IMG/VR virus record: IMGVR_UViG_2718217785_000001 | Source of the DNA: a virus | Taxonomy: Duplodnaviria; Heunggongvirae; Uroviricota; Caudoviricetes | Length of the DNA stretch: 40,734 nucleotides | Strand: one strand, 5' to 3' | Part shown: positions 3,535 to 39,316 of the stretch, one piece after another | Layout: each line of letters starts with the position of its first letter | Numbering within the stretch: the stretch's first letter is position 1 | Program-made: the position numbers and the translations under genes | Notes under the pieces: generated by a model | Told to the model about the DNA's origin: nothing | What the model saw: the letters and a program-made list of their open reading frames with translations, nothing else | The model's database searches: none

Positions 3535-4332
3535 ATGCCCCTGGCGAAAATATTTACAAAGCAAGTTTCTTTATTAACTATGTTTTCAGCGTTAGCTTAT
3601 GCGATGGCATATTATTTTCAGAAAGGTGTCGCATCGTATTATGGCTATCCAGACCTTTTTATTAAAATAGACTTAAATACGCTATTGTATTCGGCTGTGT
3701 GGCTTTTGTTTTTTAGTTTTTTATTTCTCGGCGCCTTATATGCGGCGTTGATGTTTGATTTGAAAGGAAAATATTATGTTCCATTTATTGTATTTATAGT
3801 TGTTATGCTAATGGCTAATATTTGTATAATAGGATTTCATTGGCCTTTTGGTTATTTCTCCGAAACTTCTGTGATGAGTGTTCAGGATATTTTATTATTT
3901 GCTATGCTTTTGTTGAATTATCACAATGTGGTGTCTATGCCAATCCATAGTAAGAGACACGAACATCATATGGAGAGCATTAGAAAATTTGGGAGGCTTG
4001 CAGAGTATAAGAACGTATTTTATTATATCGATTTAAAAATCCTAAAGTCAGCTTTTCCTTTAGGGGTGATAACGTTGTTGATATTGAGCTATACATTCGG
4101 GAAGGTTACTGCATTTAAAAATAACGAATATTATATGGTAGATGGTAGTAATACTAAAGTGTTGCTCAATTCATTTGGTAGTGGTTTTGTTGTTGGTGAT
4201 TGTGAGTCAAATAGCGCAAAATTTGAATTTGTTAATGATTTAAAAGGGATGAGATTCACAATTATGTCCTCTAAAAAGGAAATAGCTAAATTAAAAGAGT
4301 GTTTCGAAATACGTGTTAAAAATACGGATTAA
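3535..4332 (+). CDS. Low-GC moron encoding integral membrane protein (about 4 N-terminal TM helices plus C-terminal soluble domain), unknown function
   Basis: 265 aa ORF, strongly AT-rich codon usage, opposite strand to flanking replication genes, RBS GGAGG at 3525-3529, hydrophobic N-terminal segments. Confidence 0.6.
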   Translation: MPLAKIFTKQVSLLTMFSALAYAMAYYFQKGVASYYGYPDLFIKIDLNTLLYSAVWLLFFSFLFLGALYAALMFDLKGKYYVPFIVFIVVMLMANICIIGFHWPFGYFSETSVMSVQDILLFAMLLLNYHNVVSMPIHSKRHEHHMESIRKFGRLAEYKNVFYYIDLKILKSAFPLGVITLLILSYTFGKVTAFKNNEYYMVDGSNTKVLLNSFGSGFVVGDCESNSAKFEFVNDLKGMRFTIMSSKKEIAKLKECFEIRVKNTD

Positions 4333-4632: not shown

Positions 4633-4826
4633 TAGCTTTCGCCTTCCTGCTTTTTGCGTTTCTTCATGCAGATAGCGCAGTTCTCAGGATGGTCATGCCA
4701 TTCATCAATCCTGATACCTATGAACATCCATTTTCCGCATAGTGATATGGCTTCCCCCGAATTAAAGAAATGTGCTTTTTTTGACAGAGCGGGGAACCCC
4801 CAACCCTTATTATCGATATTAGACAT
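4632..4826 (-). CDS. Small Cys/His-containing hypothetical protein
   Basis: 64 aa ORF tightly coupled to the VRR-NUC gene; contains C-x12-H-x-H-x3-C-x2-C pattern; no family recognised. Confidence 0.4.
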   Translation of the reverse strand: MSNIDNKGWGFPALSKKAHFFNSGEAISLCGKWMFIGIRIDEWHDHPENCAICMKKRKKQEGES

Positions 4827-4862
4827 CGTCCACCTCCTTACGCTTTTCGCGCATGTTCTGCA

Positions 4863-4997
4863 TCAGACAAAAATCAAACCGACGTTCGCTTTGGCCCAGA
4901 CCTGCATCGCCCGGTCGTACCCGCCGGACTGTTCAAGGTGCAAAGCCTCCCGCACAGTCCGGTAATAAAGCGGACTGTCCCGGTATTTAAATGACAT
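4863..4997 (-). CDS. Possible 44 aa small ORF (MSFKYRDSPLYYRTVREALHLEQSGGYDRAMQVWAKANVGLIFV), unknown function
   Basis: ATG-initiated ORF in otherwise noncoding gap, found by manual translation; below the ORF-track length cutoff. Confidence 0.25.
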   Translation of the reverse strand: MSFKYRDSPLYYRTVREALHLEQSGGYDRAMQVWAKANVGLIFV

Positions 4998-5011
4998 AGG
5001 GTTTTTATTCC

Positions 5012-5038
5012 CAAATAAAAAACCCCGCGATGCAGGGT
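5012..5038 (-). terminator. Intrinsic terminator downstream of the TIR-like gene
   Basis: Minus-strand hairpin CCCTGC-ATC-GCGGGG followed by TTTTTTATTT. Confidence 0.5.
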
Positions 5039-5060
5039 TGTAATCAACAATAAGGGGTAA

Positions 5061-5822
5061 TTACGAGGAAGCGTTAGCTATTTGAGCTTGTGTAAATTCG
5101 AAACCAGAATTTTGTAACCGTTGCACTAGACGAGGAACTGTTTCACGTACATGGTCGTTGAAATTCAGATACAAAATCCCGTTAGCATCAGAAGGCTGTT
5201 CTAGGTGCTGTTTCTGAAGGATTGCTACATTGCTGCGCCCTAAGGACGAAAGAAGCATACCCATCTCGAGTACAACGTTCTGTCTTGCGCGGGGTTGGAT
5301 TTCTGCTTCACCGGCGCGCTTTGAGTATCCCATATCATCAGGTGTCAAAAGAACAATCCCGAAACGGGTAGCAGTTTGTCCTTGCCCAATTTCACGTTCA
5401 AGCTCTTCAATAATGGTGAGTCCAGTCCCTCCCGTATTCTGCAAAATGAAATGGTCTGGTAATCCAAGTTTATGAAGGATTAGCTCAAGTTGCTCCTTTG
5501 CAGTATGGTCATGGCCGTGAACAATGAATATCTTTTTGGGGAGCTCAGATGGCTGTTCTACGGCTAGTGGTGTTGCCGTGGGCGGCGTTCCTAAATGGGT
5601 CATTATTGCAGTTTCAACATTGGGACGTTCTTGAGGGTTACCTTGAAACTGAATGGTCCGGGTGGTGTAAAGGTTAACAATTACGCCATTCGTTAAACGA
5701 TAGCAGTCACAAGTCTCACGCTGTTCGTGGGAAAAATTGGTGAACCCACACTCCCCCAAAAAGTCAGGAAAAGATTCTCTCGGGTATGGATAGGTGATCG
5801 GCATTTCAGTTAGTTCCTGCAT
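5061..5822 (-). CDS. Protein with C-terminal TIR-like (COG4271-type) nucleotide-binding domain and unassigned N-terminal domain; candidate defence or abortive-infection effector
   Basis: 253 aa; C-terminal motifs KIFIVHGHD, VLLTPDD, RARQNVVLEMG resemble TIR-like/SLOG-type domains from memory; GC lower than flanking pol gene; own terminator. Confidence 0.5.
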   Translation of the reverse strand: MQELTEMPITYPYPRESFPDFLGECGFTNFSHEQRETCDCYRLTNGVIVNLYTTRTIQFQGNPQERPNVETAIMTHLGTPPTATPLAVEQPSELPKKIFIVHGHDHTAKEQLELILHKLGLPDHFILQNTGGTGLTIIEELEREIGQGQTATRFGIVLLTPDDMGYSKRAGEAEIQPRARQNVVLEMGMLLSSLGRSNVAILQKQHLEQPSDANGILYLNFNDHVRETVPRLVQRLQNSGFEFTQAQIANASS

Positions 5823-5886
5823 AAGTATTGTTCCTTTAATTTACTCGAATTCAGCATGTCGCCATAGCTCGATAAGGTGAGTTATA

Positions 5887-7950
5887 TCAATCTTTTTTGT
5901 AGTGGTACGCCTCAAAACCGCCAGCGTTCAGTGGGATATCGGGCGCCCATTCGGGGTCAGTGGAGAGAAGCGCGGAAAGCGCTTTATCGTTGAAATCTTC
6001 TGTGTCAGGTGCTTCGGTGATCACCTCGTCGTGTACCGTCAGCACAATGCTGTAACCGGCATCTTCGATAAGCGGCATGTTTCCGGCCAGAATGTCGCGG
6101 GCGGCCGCCTGGGTGATGTTCTCCACCAGCTTTCCGCCGTAGGTTTTGAGTCGTTGCCATTTACGCGAATAAGAGTTAACCCCCATGTAGGTGATATTCC
6201 CTTTTTCGATAACCGGAGACGGGTAGCATACAGCGCGTCCTGATGGTAGCTGTATGCGCAGCCACGCGCCATCGCGGCGGATTTTAAGATAACCGCAATA
6301 CAATGTTTTTTGCGGTGTGGCGATTGCAGTGCGGACGGTGCGCTCCAGTTCGTACCAGAAATCACAGGTCGCGGGATGCGCCCGGCGCCAGAGACGTTTA
6401 AGTGAGTCGCAGGCGATAAATACCCGTTCAGAAAGCCCGTAGGTTGACTTGCGTTTAACCGATTCGTCGTACCAGCTTTTCGCCTCGTGGATAACATCGC
6501 GGGGAATGTTTGGTAGTGCGGCGTTCGCCAGCTCGTCGAGATCGAGACCGTAAACCAGTGCAAAAGTGATGAAGGCCGACACACCACCACCATAACCCAG
6601 ACCGAGTTCCATGACTTTACCGATCTGACGCATGTGTTTATCAACATCATCTGGTGCAATATCGAAAGCTTTTGCATACGCCAGTTTATATAAGTCCGGA
6701 CCCGTTCCGGCGTCGTACTCTCTGAATGCATTCAGTTTCCATTCTTCTCCCGCCAGCCATGCCAGCATACGGCCTTCAATGTTCGACAAGTCACTTACCA
6801 CCAGCTTTTTGCCTGTTGGCGCGATAATGCAGCCACGTAACGCTGAACTGGTTAGTTCCATGATATTGTCAAACAGCAGGTCTGCACATCCGGCTTTCAG
6901 TGCTTCGATGCCTTCGTCTATTTGTTCCTGTTTTAGTGAAGGGCGGGGAAGGTTCTGGGGCTGGAATAGCCGTCCGGCCCAACGACCGGTACGTGACGCC
7001 CCGCAGAACTGTAGCGTACCGCGTAAGCGCCCGTCGTGGCTTACGCCTTTCATCAGTGCCTTGTATTTACTGGTGCTGGTAGTACTGGCCTGCAGGCGGA
7101 TAGCCAGCAGTTCTTTCACGGCAGATGGTAAATCGGGGTCGGCAATACGACGTTCCAGAGTACTGCGTTGCATGTCTGGTAGCTCCACACCGTAGGATTC
7201 AACAATGTGCTTAATCAACGCGTCTCGTTGTGTGGCTGCCTGCACTTCGCCATCAGTCATTTCCTGTGTACGCTTTGCCAGGCGCTTTTGTTCCTGGTCT
7301 ACCGCGTCGATCGCAGCGCGTGCGAGTTCCACGTCCATGCAGACGCCCCGGTCATTGATCTGCTGATCACGATGCCAGAGCGTCAGTTCTGTCCCCTGAT
7401 AATTCCACTTCGGCAGACGTTTATAGACTTCGCGCATTGCCTCGATATCCAGTCCGGCGTAAGCAACAAAGCGCCGCCATTCTTCCGGGTGGGTTTTGCT
7501 GGTGGCACGGCGCAGTTTGCTGTTTTTCGGGCGGGGCTTACAGAACAGCTGGATCAGCGCTTTACCTTCTTTGTCCTTCGCTTTGTCTTGCGGGACGCCT
7601 AGTACTTCGCAGAGTTCCCCCAGAGACCCCGGGAGACCGTGCGCCAGCGCCTGCACCATTGTGTCGCGCCAACGTTCGACTGGCGGTGCCAGGCGCGGCA
7701 TTGCATAACGCAGGACGGTGCGGTCGAAGTGAGAGTTATGGAAATAAAGCAGGGTTTCAGGGTCTGCGATTGCTTCGTATAAGCCGTGTGGAATACCACC
7801 ACCGGCAGTGATATCCCACACGTTTACGGGCCCGTCGTTGATAGCCCATGCGAACAGCATCACTTCAACGCCTTCGGCATACGCATGGGTACCGTTCGTA
7901 ATAGGGATTTCGCAATAGGTTTCTAGGTCACCCCATAGTATATTGGACAT
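5887..7950 (-). CDS. Family A DNA polymerase with 3'-5' exonuclease domain
   Basis: 687 aa; exo motif GDLETY, pol motif [17 protein letters not shown], motif [17 protein letters not shown], motif C VHDEV. Confidence 0.9.
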
Positions 7951-8343: not shown

Positions 8344-8982
8344 TTAAGCATCTACCCCTTCGTCAGAAGGGAGGCCGATCATTTCGTTGAGAGTTTCGCG
8401 TCGTATAGCTGGCGGAAGCGGAGCAGATGGTGCATCGGCTGGCAGAAGTTCTTTAGCTTCAGGCCACTCTTCCAGCAGGCGCTTAACTGTGCGCACTTTA
8501 CTGAGTGCAGCGCTGACATTCTGTCGAATGTCTGACTCATCGCTCTGTATCTGCTCATAAAGTGCATCAAACCCGTAAAACTCTGTAACTAGAGGGTCAT
8601 TTGCCAGAAGGGTAAATTCCCCCGGCGCGATTTTGTGAATATGGTCTGGTGACCCTGATTCATATCCTCGATAGTTACCGTTGAAATAGACGGTAACCCG
8701 AGAACCTGCCAGATTCAGACACATGTAACACTCTTTCCTGATAATATTATTGGCGGTTTTTAATGCTTCGGGGAATTTTGATACCAGTGTTTCTATTTTT
8801 TTTATAATTTTTAATATTTCAGCTTCTTTCTCTACGCCCCCGATAGCTGCAAGCCGAACACGTTCGGCCCATTCAACACGAGCAGCTCGTAGTGCTGATT
8901 TACGTTTGGGGATACCCGCTTTCTCAAGTGCGTTATTGATGATTTGAGTTTTAAGGTGATTAGTTAATACGGGCTGTGACAT
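8344..8982 (-). CDS. Hypothetical phage protein (replication module); ORF could start 15 nt upstream at 8997
   Basis: ORF with RBS GAGGGAAAG ahead of internal ATG (MSQPVL); no family recognised. Confidence 0.55.
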   Translation of the reverse strand: MSQPVLTNHLKTQIINNALEKAGIPKRKSALRAARVEWAERVRLAAIGGVEKEAEILKIIKKIETLVSKFPEALKTANNIIRKECYMCLNLAGSRVTVYFNGNYRGYESGSPDHIHKIAPGEFTLLANDPLVTEFYGFDALYEQIQSDESDIRQNVSAALSKVRTVKRLLEEWPEAKELLPADAPSAPLPPAIRRETLNEMIGLPSDEGVDA

Positions 8983-9034
8983 TATTCTTTCCCTCATGAG
9001 ATACCCCCAGCACGTAGCTGGGGGATGAATATTT

Positions 9035-37042: not shown

Positions 37043-37705
37043 ATGCATCGTATAGACACGAAAACCGCGCAGAAGGATAAGTTCGGCGCGGGTAAGAACG
37101 GTTTTACCCGTGGTAACCCCCAGACCGGCACGCCTGCCACCGATCTGGATGATGACTACTTTGACATGTTGCAGGAGGAGCTTTGCAGCGTTGTGGAGGC
37201 ATCCGGTGCCAGCCTGGAGAAGGGGCGGCATGACCAGCTGCTTACCGCGCTTCGTGCGCTGCTGTTAAGCCGCAAGAATCCGTTTGGCGATATCAAATCG
37301 GATGGCACGGTGAAAACAGCTCTCGAAAACCTTGGTTTGGGAGAAGCGGCGAAACGAAATGTGGGAACAGGGGAAAATCAGATACCGGACATGGCCTCTT
37401 TTGCCAGTGGTGATGGATGGATGAAATTACCCAACGGGAAAATCCTGCAATATGGTCGTGGGCGTGTGTCTCCTACGCTTGCGAGTCAGACACTACGGGT
37501 AGAATTTAATATACCTTTCCCTAAAAAAGCTGATATTGCCTTGCTTTCACATTCTGGTGATGGTGGTTCAACTGCCGGGAGTGGTCGTGGTTTTATGATG
37601 ACAACTGAAGAGCCAGGGTTAACAGGGTTTTATTCTGCCTTTAGAACAACCTCGACAAGTCCAACTGTTACCATGAATTACTGTTGGTGGGCTGTTGGCG
37701 AGTAA
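37043..37705 (+). CDS. Tail fibre protein: constant N-terminus (res 1-104) fused to variable C-terminus inside invertible segment
   Basis: 220 aa; N-terminus [21 protein letters not shown] typical of e14/Mu-type fibres; crossover site within LGLGEAAK coding region. Confidence 0.75.
37320..37350. other. Left crossover site of invertible segment (hix/gix-like)
   Basis: TTGGTTTGGGAGAAGCGGC at 37332-37350 is the exact reverse complement of 38917-38935; imperfect palindromic half-sites AAACC/GGTTT. Confidence 0.65.
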
Positions 37706-37725
37706 TTTTATTCAGGGTGATTTAT

Positions 37726-38169
37726 ATGAACAAATATGTTTATAGTGCCAGACATAATGCTTTTTTCCCTGTGGATATGATTGATAAATATAAATCAGAG
37801 GGATGGGATTTATCAGATGTGAAAGAAGTGAATCAAAATATTGTCAGTGAGTTTATGGCTGAACCGCCACAAGGAAAAGTCCGTATTGCCGGAGATGATG
37901 CGCTGCCTGCGTGGGCTGATATTCCTCCACCCACGCATGAAGAGCTTATTGAAATTACTGAATCAGAAAGACAGCTACTAATTAACCAGGCCAACGAATA
38001 CATGAACAGTAAACAATGGCCCGGTAAAGCCGCTATTGGTCGTCTGAAAGGTGACGAACTGGCGCAATATAATTTGTGGCTGGATTATCTGGACGCACTG
38101 GAACTGGTTGATACTTCCGGTGCGCCAGATATTGAATGGCCTACGCCTCCGGCTGTTCAGGCCAGATGA
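37726..38169 (+). CDS. Tail fibre assembly protein (Tfa), active orientation
   Basis: Conserved Tfa core (LPAWADIPPPTHEE), directly after fibre gene. Confidence 0.7.
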   Translation: MNKYVYSARHNAFFPVDMIDKYKSEGWDLSDVKEVNQNIVSEFMAEPPQGKVRIAGDDALPAWADIPPPTHEELIEITESERQLLINQANEYMNSKQWPGKAAIGRLKGDELAQYNLWLDYLDALELVDTSGAPDIEWPTPPAVQAR

Positions 38170-38557
38170 CATCAGGGGCCGTTGACGTATCGACGGCTTT
38201 CACCGCTTTTTTATGCGCCATCCACTCAGACAATTTCGCTTTATCCTCGTCACTTATATCGCCGAGCATTAATTCAACCCGCCAGTCGGCGGTTACTTCG
38301 TCAATCTGCTGTAGCCGTTGCTGGCGATATTGTTCTGCCGCCGCTATTTGCTCTTCATGCGTTGGAGGCGGCGCATCGACCCAAGCGGGCAGTCCAGTGC
38401 TATCTGCACCAAGCATTTTACCTTCAGGCCAGGCAATACCAGCAAATTGGTTGTAGAGGTTAACACTGATTTCAATAGCTGATTCAGGAATAAACCTGCT
38501 TTCAGGTTCAATATAAAATCCGTTATCAACGGCGTCATAAAAGTATCTTGTTTTCAT
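38141..38557 (-). CDS. Tail fibre assembly protein (Tfa), alternative cassette
   Basis: Same Tfa core (LPAWVDAPPPTHEEQ) on the opposite strand, convergent with the first. Confidence 0.7.
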   Translation of the reverse strand: MKTRYFYDAVDNGFYIEPESRFIPESAIEISVNLYNQFAGIAWPEGKMLGADSTGLPAWVDAPPPTHEEQIAAAEQYRQQRLQQIDEVTADWRVELMLGDISDEDKAKLSEWMAHKKAVKAVDTSTAPDVIWPEQPEA

Positions 38558-38558
38558 G

Positions 38559-38935
38559 TTAATAACCTATTGCGAATAAACAACCGGCAGCTGAAGCACC
38601 CGCCCATGAAGTCCCATTAGTTGTTCTTAAAACACGAACTTTGACTGTCGTTCTGGTAGAGCCACCAATATCGAAGCCCCACGTTGTGCCGGCCGATCCA
38701 TTCCACGAGCTAGCAGAAGCACCTGAGTCAATCGCAGTGGCATGAAACAGAGCGTTAGGAAATGCCATAGGTAATGTCACGGTTGCTACTCCAGTCGAAT
38801 CGGAAAGAAATCCAGAGACCCACTGGAAAATGATATTTTGTTCAACCCCACCAATTAAAGCCGGGATCAATATTCTCCCGGTATTACCCGTTACCCCTAC
38901 AGCAGCGCCAAGTTTTGCCGCTTCTCCCAAACCAA
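38559..38935 (-). CDS. Alternative tail fibre C-terminal cassette (silent in present orientation)
   Basis: Minus-strand ORF sharing GLGEAAK junction with the + strand fibre, lacks its own constant N-terminus. Confidence 0.65.
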
Positions 38936-38947
38936 CGTTTATGAAAA
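38917..38947. other. Right crossover site of invertible segment (TTCTCCCAAACCAACGTTTATGAAAA)
   Basis: 26 bp hix-like imperfect palindrome; inverted copy of left site. Confidence 0.65.
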
Positions 38948-39001
38948 TGCAGAAATAACGAGCAAATGGCATCATTCCTGCTTTTGTCAGGGAGATCTAC
39001 C

Positions 39002-39316
39002 ATGCTTATTGGCTATGTACGTGTGTCAACAAATGACCAGAACACCGATCTGCAACGTAATGCACTGAACTGCGCGGGATGTGAGCGGATTTTTGAGGAT
39101 ACAATCAGTGGCACTAAGTCCGACAGACCAGGGCTGAAAAAACTGCTCAGGACATTATCGGCAGGTGACACTCTGGTTGTCTGGAAGCTGGATCGGCTGG
39201 GGCGCAGTATGCGGCATCTTGTCGTGCTGGTGGAGGAGTTGCGCGAACAAGGTGTTAACTTTAGTAGTTATGTTATTACAGGTGGGGGATTTCTCCCCCT
39301 TATGCAGATTTTCTAG
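39002..39316 (+). pseudogene. pin: Pin/Gin/Hin-family serine DNA invertase, truncated after about residue 85
   Basis: N-terminus MLIGYVRVSTNDQNTDLQRNAL...TLVVWKLDRLGRS matches Pin-type resolvase domain; homology stops near 39262 and ORF ends in unrelated low-GC sequence. Confidence 0.7.

What the first reader, a model, noticed from the sequence alone, without database searches (positions are those of the whole stretch)
5061..5822. Standalone TIR-like-domain protein embedded in the prophage replication operon
The C-terminal two-thirds of this 253 aa protein carries KIFIVHGHD, VLLTPDD and RARQNVVLEMG, which match my recollection of the COG4271-type TIR-like nucleotide-binding domain used as an NAD-consuming effector in CBASS, Pycsar and Thoeris-type immunity. 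The first ~95 residues match nothing I recognise and could be a sensor. The gene has lower GC than the flanking polymerase gene and its own intrinsic terminator, and no cyclase, SIR2 or other partner is present in the window. It may be a single-gene abortive-infection or superinfection-exclusion module.
Basis: partly seen in the sequence, partly recalled or inferred. Interest (0 to 1): 0.8.

Follow-up and report, generated by a model that had tools for sequence, protein, structure and literature searches.

The report
Prophage-borne single-gene TIR defence candidate
A 253-residue protein carried as an optional 0.9-kb insert in an E. coli prophage joins a small sensor-like domain to a predicted NAD-destroying TIR domain; it belongs to a widespread, already catalogued but untested family of candidate anti-phage genes.

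Summary
ORF 5061-5822 (-) encodes 253 aa with the quoted motifs. Residues 97-222 match Pfam PF10137 (CAP12/Pycsar TIR, E=2.9e-31). The whole protein matches PADLOC candidate family PDC-S35 (E=2e-108).

- **Optional cargo:** the gene lies in an 898-bp, lower-GC insert with a terminator-like hairpin, between polA and the ANR gene, which are about 5 bp apart in 'empty' relatives. Two alleles occur in 37 and 10 of 5,426 complete E. coli genomes. About 1,700 phage records have a related polA; 4 have the TIR protein.
- **No partner:** no cyclase or other partner gene is in the window. No neighbour family recurs in more than 11 of 80 loci from other species.
- **Conservation:** the TIR domain averages 67% pairwise identity across phyla and its aligned catalytic Glu is kept in 79/80. 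The N-domain averages 33%.
- **RNase HI link:** in 11/80 loci an intact RNase HI gene lies directly adjacent (start/stop overlapping in six).

Best reading: a single-protein sensor-TIR NADase for abortive infection or superinfection exclusion. Activity, trigger and lysogenic expression are untested. It is a new member of a known kind.

The parts
5001..5898 (.). 898-bp insert relative to related 'empty' prophages; it occupies the slot between polA and the ANR-family gene
   Evidence: blastn and alignments against L012 and L013: homology ends at about window 5000 and resumes at 5899. The empty loci have about 14 bp there, and polA and ANR are 5 bp apart. GC is 44.2%.
5061..5822 (-). CDS of the 253-aa two-domain TIR protein (PADLOC PDC-S35 family; phrog_16442)
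   Evidence: PADLOC PDLC05003, aa 10-253 against 3-245 of 245, E=2e-108. phrog_16442 E=5e-108. RefSeq calls it 'TIR domain-containing protein'.
5583..5822 (-). N-terminal domain, aa 1-80: alpha-beta4-alpha, TBP-like fold with motif NLYTTRTIQFQG; putative sensor
5535..5582 (-). variable linker, aa 81-96 (Pro/Thr/Ala-rich)
   Evidence: pLDDT below 50 for aa 80-93. Length and sequence vary in alignment A1.
5064..5534 (-). CAP12/Pycsar-type TIR domain (aa 97-222) plus conserved C-terminal helices (aa 223-253); predicted NADase effector
   Evidence: PF10137 E=2.9e-31. NCBIfam Cap12 partial hits, far below cut-off. PDB profile hits are Cap12 7un8/9lmq and PycTIR 8jsj. Foldseek best hit is TIR-STING 9lmq, E=2.8e-4. 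Mean pairwise identity is 67% across 80 species.
5265..5267 (-). codon of Glu186 in RARQNVVLEMG, the predicted catalytic glutamate
   Evidence: It aligns with the Glu of NVVFEFG in SfTIR-STING 7un8 and 9lmq. It is invariant in A1 and present in 79 of 80 species.
5011..5039 (-). terminator-like hairpin AACCCUGC-AUC-GCGGGGUU followed by a U tract, inside the insert
   Evidence: It is absent from the empty loci.
5823..5886 (-). 64-nt leader between the polA stop and the TIR start, with a Shine-Dalgarno-like AAAGGAA at about 5831-5837; no consensus sigma-70 promoter
5887..7950 (-). family A DNA polymerase gene, upstream boundary of the slot
   Evidence: PF00476; RefSeq annotation
4819..4997 (-). 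ANR-family regulator gene, frameshifted here; downstream boundary of the slot
   Evidence: RefSeq annotation of the 100%-identical locus L001; alignment to the intact ANR genes of L012 and L013

Best explanation
The gene is accessory cargo of a temperate E. coli phage integrated next to yfhL. It encodes a self-contained sensor-effector protein of the PDC-S35 family. Its C-terminal CAP12/Pycsar-type TIR domain is predicted to hydrolyse NAD+ once several copies assemble. Its small N-terminal TBP-like domain is predicted to hold the enzyme off until it meets a cue from an infecting phage and then to drive that assembly. The expected result is NAD+ depletion and abortive infection or superinfection exclusion, which protects the lysogen population.

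Shown here: the domain identities, conservation of the aligned catalytic Glu, the insert status, the absence of a partner gene, and mobility across elements and phyla.

Inferred: NADase chemistry, activation by oligomerisation (by analogy with TIR-STING and SpbK), the defence role, and the trigger.

My preferred guess for the trigger has low confidence (about 0.25). I think the N-domain couples the protein to RNase HI or to RNA-DNA-hybrid metabolism. It resembles the RNase HIII substrate-binding domain and the RNase HI-binding NRD of RnlA, and a subclade of the family is operonic with RNase HI. Direct recognition of a phage protein, as SpbK recognises a portal protein, is the main alternative.
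For: - **TIR identity:** PF10137 E=2.9e-31. PDB profile hits are only Cap12/TIR-STING and PycTIR, and E186 aligns to their NVVFEFG glutamate. Foldseek best hit is TIR-STING 9lmq.
- **Catalogued candidate:** full-length match to PADLOC PDC-S35, E=2e-108. [quoted passage not shown]
- **Optional insert:**. It is present in 37 + 10 of 5,426 E. coli genomes, and in 4 of about 1,700 phage records with a related PolA.
- **Allele replacement in the slot:** PolA identity of 97-98% goes with TIR identity of 71-72%. dN is five times higher in the N-domain (0.48 against 0.096).
- **Other cargo nearby:** neighbouring slots of the same module hold defence-type genes in relatives: a BstA C-terminal-domain protein, SIR2 and DUF4145.
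- **Contexts elsewhere:** integrative elements, an integron-like cassette array with Mrr and PemK, an island with DUF4062 and a reverse transcriptase, and type I RM genes.
- **No conserved partner:** the commonest neighbour is found in 11 of 80 loci.
- **N-domain fold:**
- **RNase HI link:** an RNase HI gene with an intact DEDD-H active site is adjacent in 11 of 80 loci. TAATG/TGATG overlaps and unrelated flanks indicate a mobile pair. RNase HI binds the RnlA NRD (PMC5308261).
- **Functional precedent:** SpbK is a 267-aa protein with N-domain, linker and TIR, activated by a phage portal protein (PMC11984713).
Against: - No experiment on this family was found, and PDC systems are explicitly unvalidated.
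- No consensus promoter lies in the 64-nt leader. The gene may therefore be transcribed only with the replication operon during lytic growth, which is not what a lysogen-protecting gene would need.
- The TIR half of the AF2 model has only moderate confidence (pLDDT 50-80), and TM to TIR-STING is about 0.33.
- N-domain sequence similarity to RNase HIII and RnlA is sub-threshold: E=0.2, and hhalign probability 12%.
- The N-domain has net charge -5, which argues against direct nucleic-acid binding.
- The RNase HI-linked subclade shares only 15-29% N-domain identity with the E. coli protein, and the window has no RNase H gene.
- If RNA-DNA hybrids were the cue, the resident phage's own replication would risk triggering it.
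Confidence: 0.6

Rival explanations
1. The protein serves the phage's own lytic cycle. It would be co-transcribed with the polymerase genes and use its TIR-type glycosidase chemistry on NAD+ or a nucleotide. Possible purposes are reshaping nucleotide pools, supplying a DNA-modification pathway, or destroying NAD-derived host immune signals (counter-defence).
For: Same strand as polA and 64 nt downstream of it, with no promoter consensus of its own. It sits in a module that also carries an Nmad5 'nucleotide modification' gene. It occupies the same slot in related prophages of E. coli and Serratia.
Against: Closely related prophages lack it, and so do more than 99% of phages with this polymerase type. 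The same protein family occurs in many non-phage contexts, including chromosomal islands and next to type I RM genes. Presence of Nmad5 and of the TIR gene is uncoupled. The characterised PF10137 proteins that came up here are NADases: the CBASS and Pycsar effectors named in the libraries and amoeba TirC.
Confidence: 0.12
2. It is a signal-generating TIR, as ThsB is in Thoeris. Its product would activate an effector encoded elsewhere in the host genome.
For: Bacterial TIR proteins can act as signal synthases (abstract of 10.64898/2025.12.03.692087). The protein is small and has a sensor-like N-domain.
Against: The only Pfam hit is PF10137, not the ThsB family PF08937. PF10137 TIRs form a clade apart from ThsB (10.64898/2026.04.30.722052). 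No effector-like gene recurs next to it in 80 loci. A mobile single gene that depends on an unlinked effector is unlikely to spread across phyla.
Confidence: 0.05
3. The TIR domain acts on something other than NAD+, for example nucleic acids or nucleotides. The cell or the phage would then be stopped by nucleic-acid damage rather than by NAD+ loss.
For: The N-domain resembles domains attached to RNases (RNase HIII, RnlA). RNase HI is the commonest neighbour. Early comparative work called some bacterial TIRs possible nucleases (PMC3710099). The invariant HGHD and TPDD motifs have no assigned role here.
Against: The closest solved and annotated relatives, Cap12/TIR-STING and PycTIR, are named as NAD+ hydrolases in the libraries. 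The Glu that aligns with their conserved glutamate is kept.
Confidence: 0.1
4. It is a selfish or neutral passenger. Either it is a toxin-like gene maintained by addiction or hitch-hiking, or it is a silenced remnant with no benefit to phage or host.
For: There is no demonstrated phenotype. It sits on mobile elements, often next to toxin-antitoxin pairs.
Against: The ORF is intact and under strong purifying selection: TIR dN=0.096 with saturated dS. TIR identity averages 67% across phyla and catalytic residues are retained. There is no cognate antitoxin-like neighbour.
Confidence: 0.08

Closest known systems
PADLOC phage defence candidate PDC-S35 (single-gene candidate; PADLOC-DB v2.0.0; Payne et al. 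preprint 10.1101/2024.01.29.577857)
   Same: Full-length match to model PDLC05003 (E=2e-108). The other four PDC-S35 models match the TIR half only. It is a single gene with no fixed partner, and is found beside or inside type I RM loci.
   Different: Nothing differs: this is the family. It is a computational candidate without published validation. The prophage slot, the N-domain fold and the RNase HI linkage were not mentioned in any text I could search.
CBASS Cap12 (TIR-STING, TIR-SAVED) and Pycsar PycTIR effectors
   Same: Same TIR subtype, PF10137. The glutamate of the NVV(F/L)E(F/M)G motif aligns. They are the best PDB matches by sequence and by fold.
   Different: There is no STING, SAVED or cNMP-binding domain and no cyclase gene. 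NCBIfam Cap12 equivalog scores are 35 bits against a cut-off of 450. The protein therefore cannot be driven by a cyclic-nucleotide signal made by a partner.
SpbK of Bacillus subtilis ICEBs1 (PMC11984713)
   Same: A single small protein (267 aa against 253 aa) on a mobile element, built as N-domain, linker and C-terminal TIR with a catalytic Glu (E192 against E186). SpbK is an abortive-infection NADase activated when its N-domain binds a phage portal protein.
   Different: No SpbK hit appeared in the PADLOC scan, but I could not confirm that this library holds a SpbK model. The trigger here is unknown.
[quoted passage not shown]
   Different: Sequence similarity is below significance. The attached effector is a TIR, not an RNase H or HEPN nuclease. 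The E. coli N-domain is acidic.
Dictyostelium TirB/TirD (bioRxiv 10.64898/2026.04.30.722052)
   Different: Not compared directly, as I had no TirB sequence. The authors attribute the N-terminus to domain shuffling within amoebae.

Membership tests
Pfam PF10137 CAP12/Pycsar-type TIR domain | Profile match above the curated gathering score over the whole domain | tested here: met
   108.4 bits against 24.7; aa 97-222 against positions 1-118 of 119
Pfam PF10137 CAP12/Pycsar-type TIR domain | Conserved catalytic glutamate in the NVVxExG motif | tested here: met
   E186 aligns with the Glu of 7un8 and 9lmq. It is invariant in A1 and present in 79 of 80 species.
Pfam PF10137 CAP12/Pycsar-type TIR domain | TIR (flavodoxin-like) fold closest to solved Cap12 structures | tested here: met
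   Foldseek top three hits are TIR-STING 9lmq/9lmr, E=2.8e-4 to 9.7e-4, probability 1.00. TM is only about 0.33 because this half of the model has pLDDT 50-80.
Pfam PF10137 CAP12/Pycsar-type TIR domain | NAD+ hydrolase activity on oligomerisation | not testable with these tools
   Needs biochemistry
CBASS or Pycsar system | Adjacent CD-NTase or pyrimidine cyclase gene | tested here: not met
   No such hit among the window ORFs scanned. None recurs in 80 related loci.
CBASS or Pycsar system | Effector carries a cyclic-nucleotide sensor domain (STING, SAVED, cNMP-binding) | tested here: not met
   The N-domain has no such Pfam or PADLOC hit, and its fold is TBP-like. NCBIfam Cap12 scores 35 bits against a cut-off of 450.
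PADLOC PDC-S35 | Full-length match to a family HMM | tested here: met
   PDLC05003, E=2e-108, aa 10-253 against 3-245 of 245
PADLOC PDC-S35 | Single-gene system without an obligate partner | tested here: met
   Commonest neighbour family (RNase HI) is in 11 of 80 loci. All others are in 10 or fewer, and the family found in 10 is a heterogeneous ABC-ATPase cluster.
PADLOC PDC-S35 | Found embedded in or beside known defence systems | tested here: met
   HsdM in 5 loci and HsdR in 4 of 80. Mrr plus PemK, DUF4062 plus reverse transcriptase, and a Schlafen-type protein are neighbours elsewhere.
PADLOC PDC-S35 | Demonstrated protection against phage | not testable with these tools
   No report found. 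PDCs are described as unvalidated.
SpbK-like single-protein TIR abortive-infection systems | N-domain, linker and TIR architecture of about 260 aa on a mobile element | tested here: met
   compared with PMC11984713
SpbK-like single-protein TIR abortive-infection systems | Sequence homology to SpbK | not tested
There was no SpbK hit in PADLOC, but whether that library holds a SpbK model is unverified.
RNase HIII-N / RnlA NTD-NRD (TBP-like) domain | alpha-beta4-alpha TBP-like fold | tested here: met
   [not shown]
RNase HIII-N / RnlA NTD-NRD (TBP-like) domain | Significant sequence-profile similarity | tested here: inconclusive
   3vn5 is the top PDB hit, but at E=0.2; LsoA E=0.49. Pfam RnlA_toxin matches 6 of 23 members, best E=0.0019, below the gathering score; DUF3378 matches 2 of 23. 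hhalign against the RnlA NRD gives E=0.0024, probability 12%.
RNase HIII-N / RnlA NTD-NRD (TBP-like) domain | Binds RNA-DNA hybrid or RNase HI | not testable with these tools
   Only indirect evidence: RNase HI is adjacent in 11 of 80 loci. The acidic charge of the domain argues against direct nucleic-acid binding.
Thoeris (ThsB) | ThsB-type TIR with a linked ThsA-like effector | tested here: not met
   No PF08937 hit, no Thoeris hit in PADLOC, and no recurrent effector neighbour
Nucleoside 2-deoxyribosyltransferase-like housekeeping enzyme | NDT-family profile or fold match, and invariant presence in the replication module | tested here: not met
   No NDT hit in Pfam or among the Foldseek top 50. 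The gene is absent from most related modules.

The most novel reading that the evidence does not exclude
The PDC-S35 N-domain is a previously unrecognised relative of the RNase HIII/RnlA TBP-like domain, and it ties a TIR NADase to RNase HI. Under this reading the protein would guard RNase HI or RNA-DNA-hybrid metabolism. In the two-gene form it uses a co-encoded RNase HI; in the E. coli prophage form it would use host RnhA. It would fire when an infecting phage perturbs that metabolism. This would be a new trigger logic for TIR immunity. It would also mechanistically link the family to the RnlA-RNase HI system, and possibly to the amoeba TirB/TirD proteins.
Probability: 0.25. Interest if true: 0.7.

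Novelty: new member of a known kind. Interest (0 to 1): 0.45.

Why it matters
If it is active, this is a compact one-gene NAD+-depleting immunity module that temperate phages swap in and out of a fixed slot in their replication operon. That would make it a clean model for two questions: how a TIR enzyme is switched on without a second-messenger partner, and how prophages arm their hosts against rival phages. The family is very large, with about 1,000 clusters at 50% identity at E<=1e-30 and about 7,750 at E<=1e-10. It spans many phyla and is still untested. The RNase HI linkage and the RnlA/RNase HIII-like N-domain give a concrete, testable hypothesis for its trigger. The practical consequence is modest: about 1% of complete E. 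coli genomes carry it, which could affect phage susceptibility.

Tried and rejected
- **CBASS, Pycsar or Thoeris membership:** rejected, because there is no cyclase, no nucleotide-sensor domain and no ThsA/ThsB profile.
- **Nucleoside deoxyribosyltransferase or housekeeping role:** rejected. DUF4406 in related prophages at first looked like an alternative occupant of the same slot. It actually sits one slot further on, between ANR and VRR-NUC.
- **Autonomous promoter:** none found by consensus scan or by aligning the leaders of four alleles.
- **Positive selection on the N-domain:** cannot be claimed. dS is saturated and dN/dS is about 0.2.
- **Other effectors fused to the N-domain:** a profile search with the N-domain alone returned only short proteins of 52-143 aa with no Pfam domain on record. 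Longer relatives of 321-543 aa have extra regions that are unannotated, apart from one receiver domain.
- **Fold search of the N-domain against viral structures (BFVD):** only weak hits to uncharacterised proteins. AFDB50 was unavailable, so the amoeba TirB link could not be tested.
- **Literature:** searches for PDC-S35, COG4271 and the three phage names returned nothing. The supplements of the PADLOC preprint do not contain 'PDC-S35'.
Full report
**Observation.** The window is an IMG/VR prophage contig (IMGVR_UViG_2718217713_000001). The stretches compared with complete E. coli chromosomes are 100% identical to strains 14EC029 and C11, where the element is integrated beside yfhL. ORF 5061-5822 (-) starts with ATG and encodes 253 aa containing KIFIVHGHD, VLLTPDD and RARQNVVLEMG. 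Residues 97-222 match Pfam PF10137, the CAP12/Pycsar effector TIR domain, end to end (E=2.9e-31). A profile of the family hits only Cap12/TIR-STING (7un8, 9lmq) and PycTIR (8jsj) among PDB sequences, and E186 aligns with the glutamate of their NVVFEFG motif. The AF2 model's best structural matches are TIR-STING chains (E=2.8e-4). That half of the model has only moderate confidence (pLDDT 50-80). GC is 45.8% for the gene against 54.2% for polA. A hairpin followed by a U tract lies 21 nt after the stop.

**The family is already catalogued.** The whole protein matches PADLOC model PDLC05003 of 'PDC-S35' (E=2e-108) and phrog_16442 (E=5e-108). RefSeq annotates it as a 'TIR domain-containing protein'. 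PDC families were derived from genes embedded in BREX, DISARM or type I RM loci, and they are explicitly unvalidated. I found no experimental paper on this family. Four further PDC-S35 models match only the TIR half. Other phage-borne relatives carry unrelated N-terminal regions of 120-150 aa on the same TIR. The family is therefore a conserved TIR effector with exchangeable N-terminal modules.

**Anatomy of the insert.** Compared with closely related prophages that lack the gene (L012, L013), homology stops at about window 5000 and resumes at 5899. In those prophages polA and the ANR-family gene are 5 bp apart. The insert (5001-5898) therefore holds only a 64-nt leader with a Shine-Dalgarno sequence, the ORF and the hairpin. 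No sigma-70 consensus promoter lies in the leader, either in this allele or in three others. Expression in the lysogen is the weakest link in the defence reading.

**Accessory, not core.**
- A PolA of this type is found in 1,727 phage records, and the TIR protein in 4.
- Of 159 complete E. coli genomes with polA at least 95% identical in nucleotides, 37 carry this allele.
- Ten E. coli genomes carry a second allele in the same slot.
- The two alleles are 71-72% identical in protein. The TIR half is 89% identical (dN 0.096) and the N-domain 47% (dN 0.48), with dS saturated.
- In IMG/VR, 39 contigs have the protein directly after PolA. PolA and TIR identities are uncoupled: for example, PolA 97-98% goes with TIR 71-72%. 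This indicates allele exchange within the slot.
- A Serratia prophage has a 70% identical copy in the same position.
- Neighbouring slots of this replication module carry other variable cargo in relatives. These include a BstA C-terminal-domain protein, DUF6338, SIR2 and DUF4145 (a HEPN family per PMC3710099).

**Wider distribution and context.**
- A profile search finds 11,116 representatives of 50%-identity clusters at E<=0.001 and 999 at E<=1e-30.
- The pattern scan of one genome per species confirmed 237 relatives. The 80 best come from many bacterial phyla and one archaeal MAG.
- Across those 80, mean pairwise identity is 67% in the TIR half and 33% in the N-domain. E186 is kept in 79 of 80, and Q60-G61 of the N-domain in 74 of 80.
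- Contexts include integrative elements with relaxase and integrase, an integron-like integrase followed by Mrr, TPR and PemK genes, and an island with DUF4062, a reverse transcriptase and toxin-antitoxin pairs.
- HsdM is a neighbour in 5 loci and HsdR in 4 of 80.
- The TIR type also occurs on 1,150 plasmid records, almost all with other N-termini.
- No cyclase, SIR2 or other PADLOC-recognised partner turned up among the window ORFs scanned.
- No neighbour family recurs in more than 11 of the 80 loci.

**The N-terminal domain.**
- Residues about 10-78 model confidently (pLDDT about 90) as alpha-beta4-alpha.
- An HMM of the domain independently picks RNase HIII 3vn5 as its top PDB sequence hit (E=0.2) and LsoA second (E=0.49).
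- Pfam RnlA_toxin is hit by 6 of 23 members, all below threshold.
- hhalign places IVNLYTTRTIQFQGNP on TVSLHITTGKLQIQGRP of the RnlA NRD.
- Each sequence signal is weak. Their agreement with the fold result makes homology to this TBP-like domain class plausible but not proven.
- In RNase HIII this domain binds RNA-DNA hybrids (PMC3710099, citing Miyashita et al. 2011). In RnlA the NRD binds RNase HI (PMC5308261).

**An unexpected neighbour.**
- In 10 of the 80 loci, an RNase HI gene (PF00075, E about 1e-43 to 1e-46) follows the TIR gene on the same strand. The loci come from Verrucomicrobiota, Chloroflexota/Dehalococcoidia, Vicinamibacterales and one 'Candidatus Versatilivorator' MAG.
- In six of the eight junctions inspected, stop and start overlap as TAATG or TGATG.
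- In an eleventh locus (Hymenobacter) the RNase HI gene lies immediately upstream.
- Flanking genes are unrelated between these loci. All eleven proteins keep the D-E-D-H-D active-site residues.
- In two loci the RNase H reading frame runs on, in frame, into a Schlafen/AlbA_2-HATPase_c_4 protein. That architecture was recently shown to mediate phage defence (PMC13056530).
- Adjacency to a gene present once or twice per genome is far above chance. This points to a mobile TIR + RNase HI pair in one subclade, whose members share 62% identity with each other against 52% with the rest.
- The E. coli prophage has no RNase H gene, and its N-domain is only 15-29% identical to those of that subclade. 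Extrapolating to the window protein is therefore tentative.
- N-domains are neutral to acidic, and the window's has net charge -5. This fits protein binding better than nucleic-acid binding.

**Mechanism.** The best-supported model is a one-protein sensor-effector. The N-domain detects an infection cue and the TIR domains assemble, as in TIR-STING filaments and as proposed for SpbK. NAD+ is then hydrolysed through E186, and infection aborts. SpbK of ICEBs1 is the closest functional precedent. It is 267 aa with N-domain, linker and TIR, has catalytic E192, and is activated when its N-domain binds a phage portal protein (PMC11984713). Chemistry, activation, role and trigger are all inferred. Domain identity, conservation, mobility and lack of a partner are shown. 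I give this model 0.6. The RNase HI-coupled trigger gets about 0.25 within it.

**Rivals.** The alternatives are a lytic-cycle enzyme or counter-defence role, a Thoeris-like signal synthase, a non-NAD substrate, and a selfish passenger. They are listed with their evidence in the rivals section. The missing promoter is the main argument for the first of these.

**Comparison and novelty.** The protein is a member of PF10137 and of PADLOC PDC-S35. It is not a CBASS, Pycsar or Thoeris component, because defining features were tested and not met. It works like SpbK, but membership of that group is untested. Prophage-encoded TIR defence genes are an established kind, and this family is already flagged as a candidate. 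I therefore rate it a new member of a known kind. Three things appear to be new in the texts I could search. The first is the mapped insertion slot with allele exchange. The second is the N-domain's relation to the RNase HIII/RnlA domain. The third is the RNase HI operon in a subclade.

**Verdict.** Interest is moderate (0.45). It would rise if the RNase HI link proves functional.

Noticed in passing
L025:7977-9256; also L067, L068, L078, L080, L083, L087, L089, L091, L092 (downstream) and L082:7446-7889 (upstream): A catalytically intact RNase HI gene lies directly next to the PDC-S35-type TIR gene in 11 of 80 species. Stop and start overlap (TAATG/TGATG) in six of the eight junctions inspected, and the flanks are unrelated between loci. 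This suggests a mobile two-gene variant.
   Followed up: partly
L083 about 1063 onward and L087:8702-10594; L089:8750-10645: In two Dehalococcoidia-type loci the RNase HI reading frame continues in frame into a Schlafen/AlbA_2-HATPase_c_4-Fic-like_C protein. In L089 the two are adjacent separate genes. That Schlafen architecture was recently reported as a phage-defence family (PMC13056530).
   Followed up: partly
window 3535-4332 (+): A 265-aa ORF with 32% GC lies on the opposite strand between the SNF2 and VRR-NUC genes. It has no hit in Pfam, PADLOC, PHROGs or NCBIfam. In related prophages the same slot holds a BstA C-terminal-domain protein (L012), DUF6338 (L003) or other hypothetical proteins, so it looks like a second cargo hotspot.
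   Followed up: partly
window 4819-4997 (-): The ANR-family regulator gene just downstream of the insert is annotated as frameshifted in the identical RefSeq locus, whereas it is intact in prophages lacking the TIR insert.
   Followed up: no
window 8344-8997 (-); L003:5000-6137; L016:4958-5653: The slot between the SSB and PolA genes is also variable. It holds Nmad5 (nucleotide-modification-associated domain) here, a SIR2-family protein in one E. coli relative, and DUF4145 (HEPN) in a Serratia relative.
   Followed up: no
window 37043-39316: An apparent invertible tail-fibre segment: two tail-fibre assembly genes (Caudo_TAP) and a Gp53-like tail-fibre C-terminus in opposite orientations, next to a resolvase/invertase gene (38966-39316). 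It resembles a Mu/P1-type host-range switch.
   Followed up: no
[not shown]
   Followed up: no
L008-L011 (protein P0096): A 51% identical homologue sits right after an integron-type tyrosine recombinase (Phage_int_SAM_4 + Phage_integrase, 327 aa). It is followed by Mrr, TPR and PemK-type genes, which looks like a cassette array.
   Followed up: no
plasmid collection: 1,150 plasmid records, mainly Klebsiella and E. coli and many conjugative, encode proteins with this TIR type. Only 2 cover at least 80% of the query, so nearly all appear to carry different N-terminal regions.
   Followed up: no
L119, L127, L134 compared with L101 (IMG/VR): PolA is 97-98% identical while the adjacent TIR gene is only 71-72% identical. 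This is evidence for allele replacement by recombination inside the slot.
   Followed up: partly
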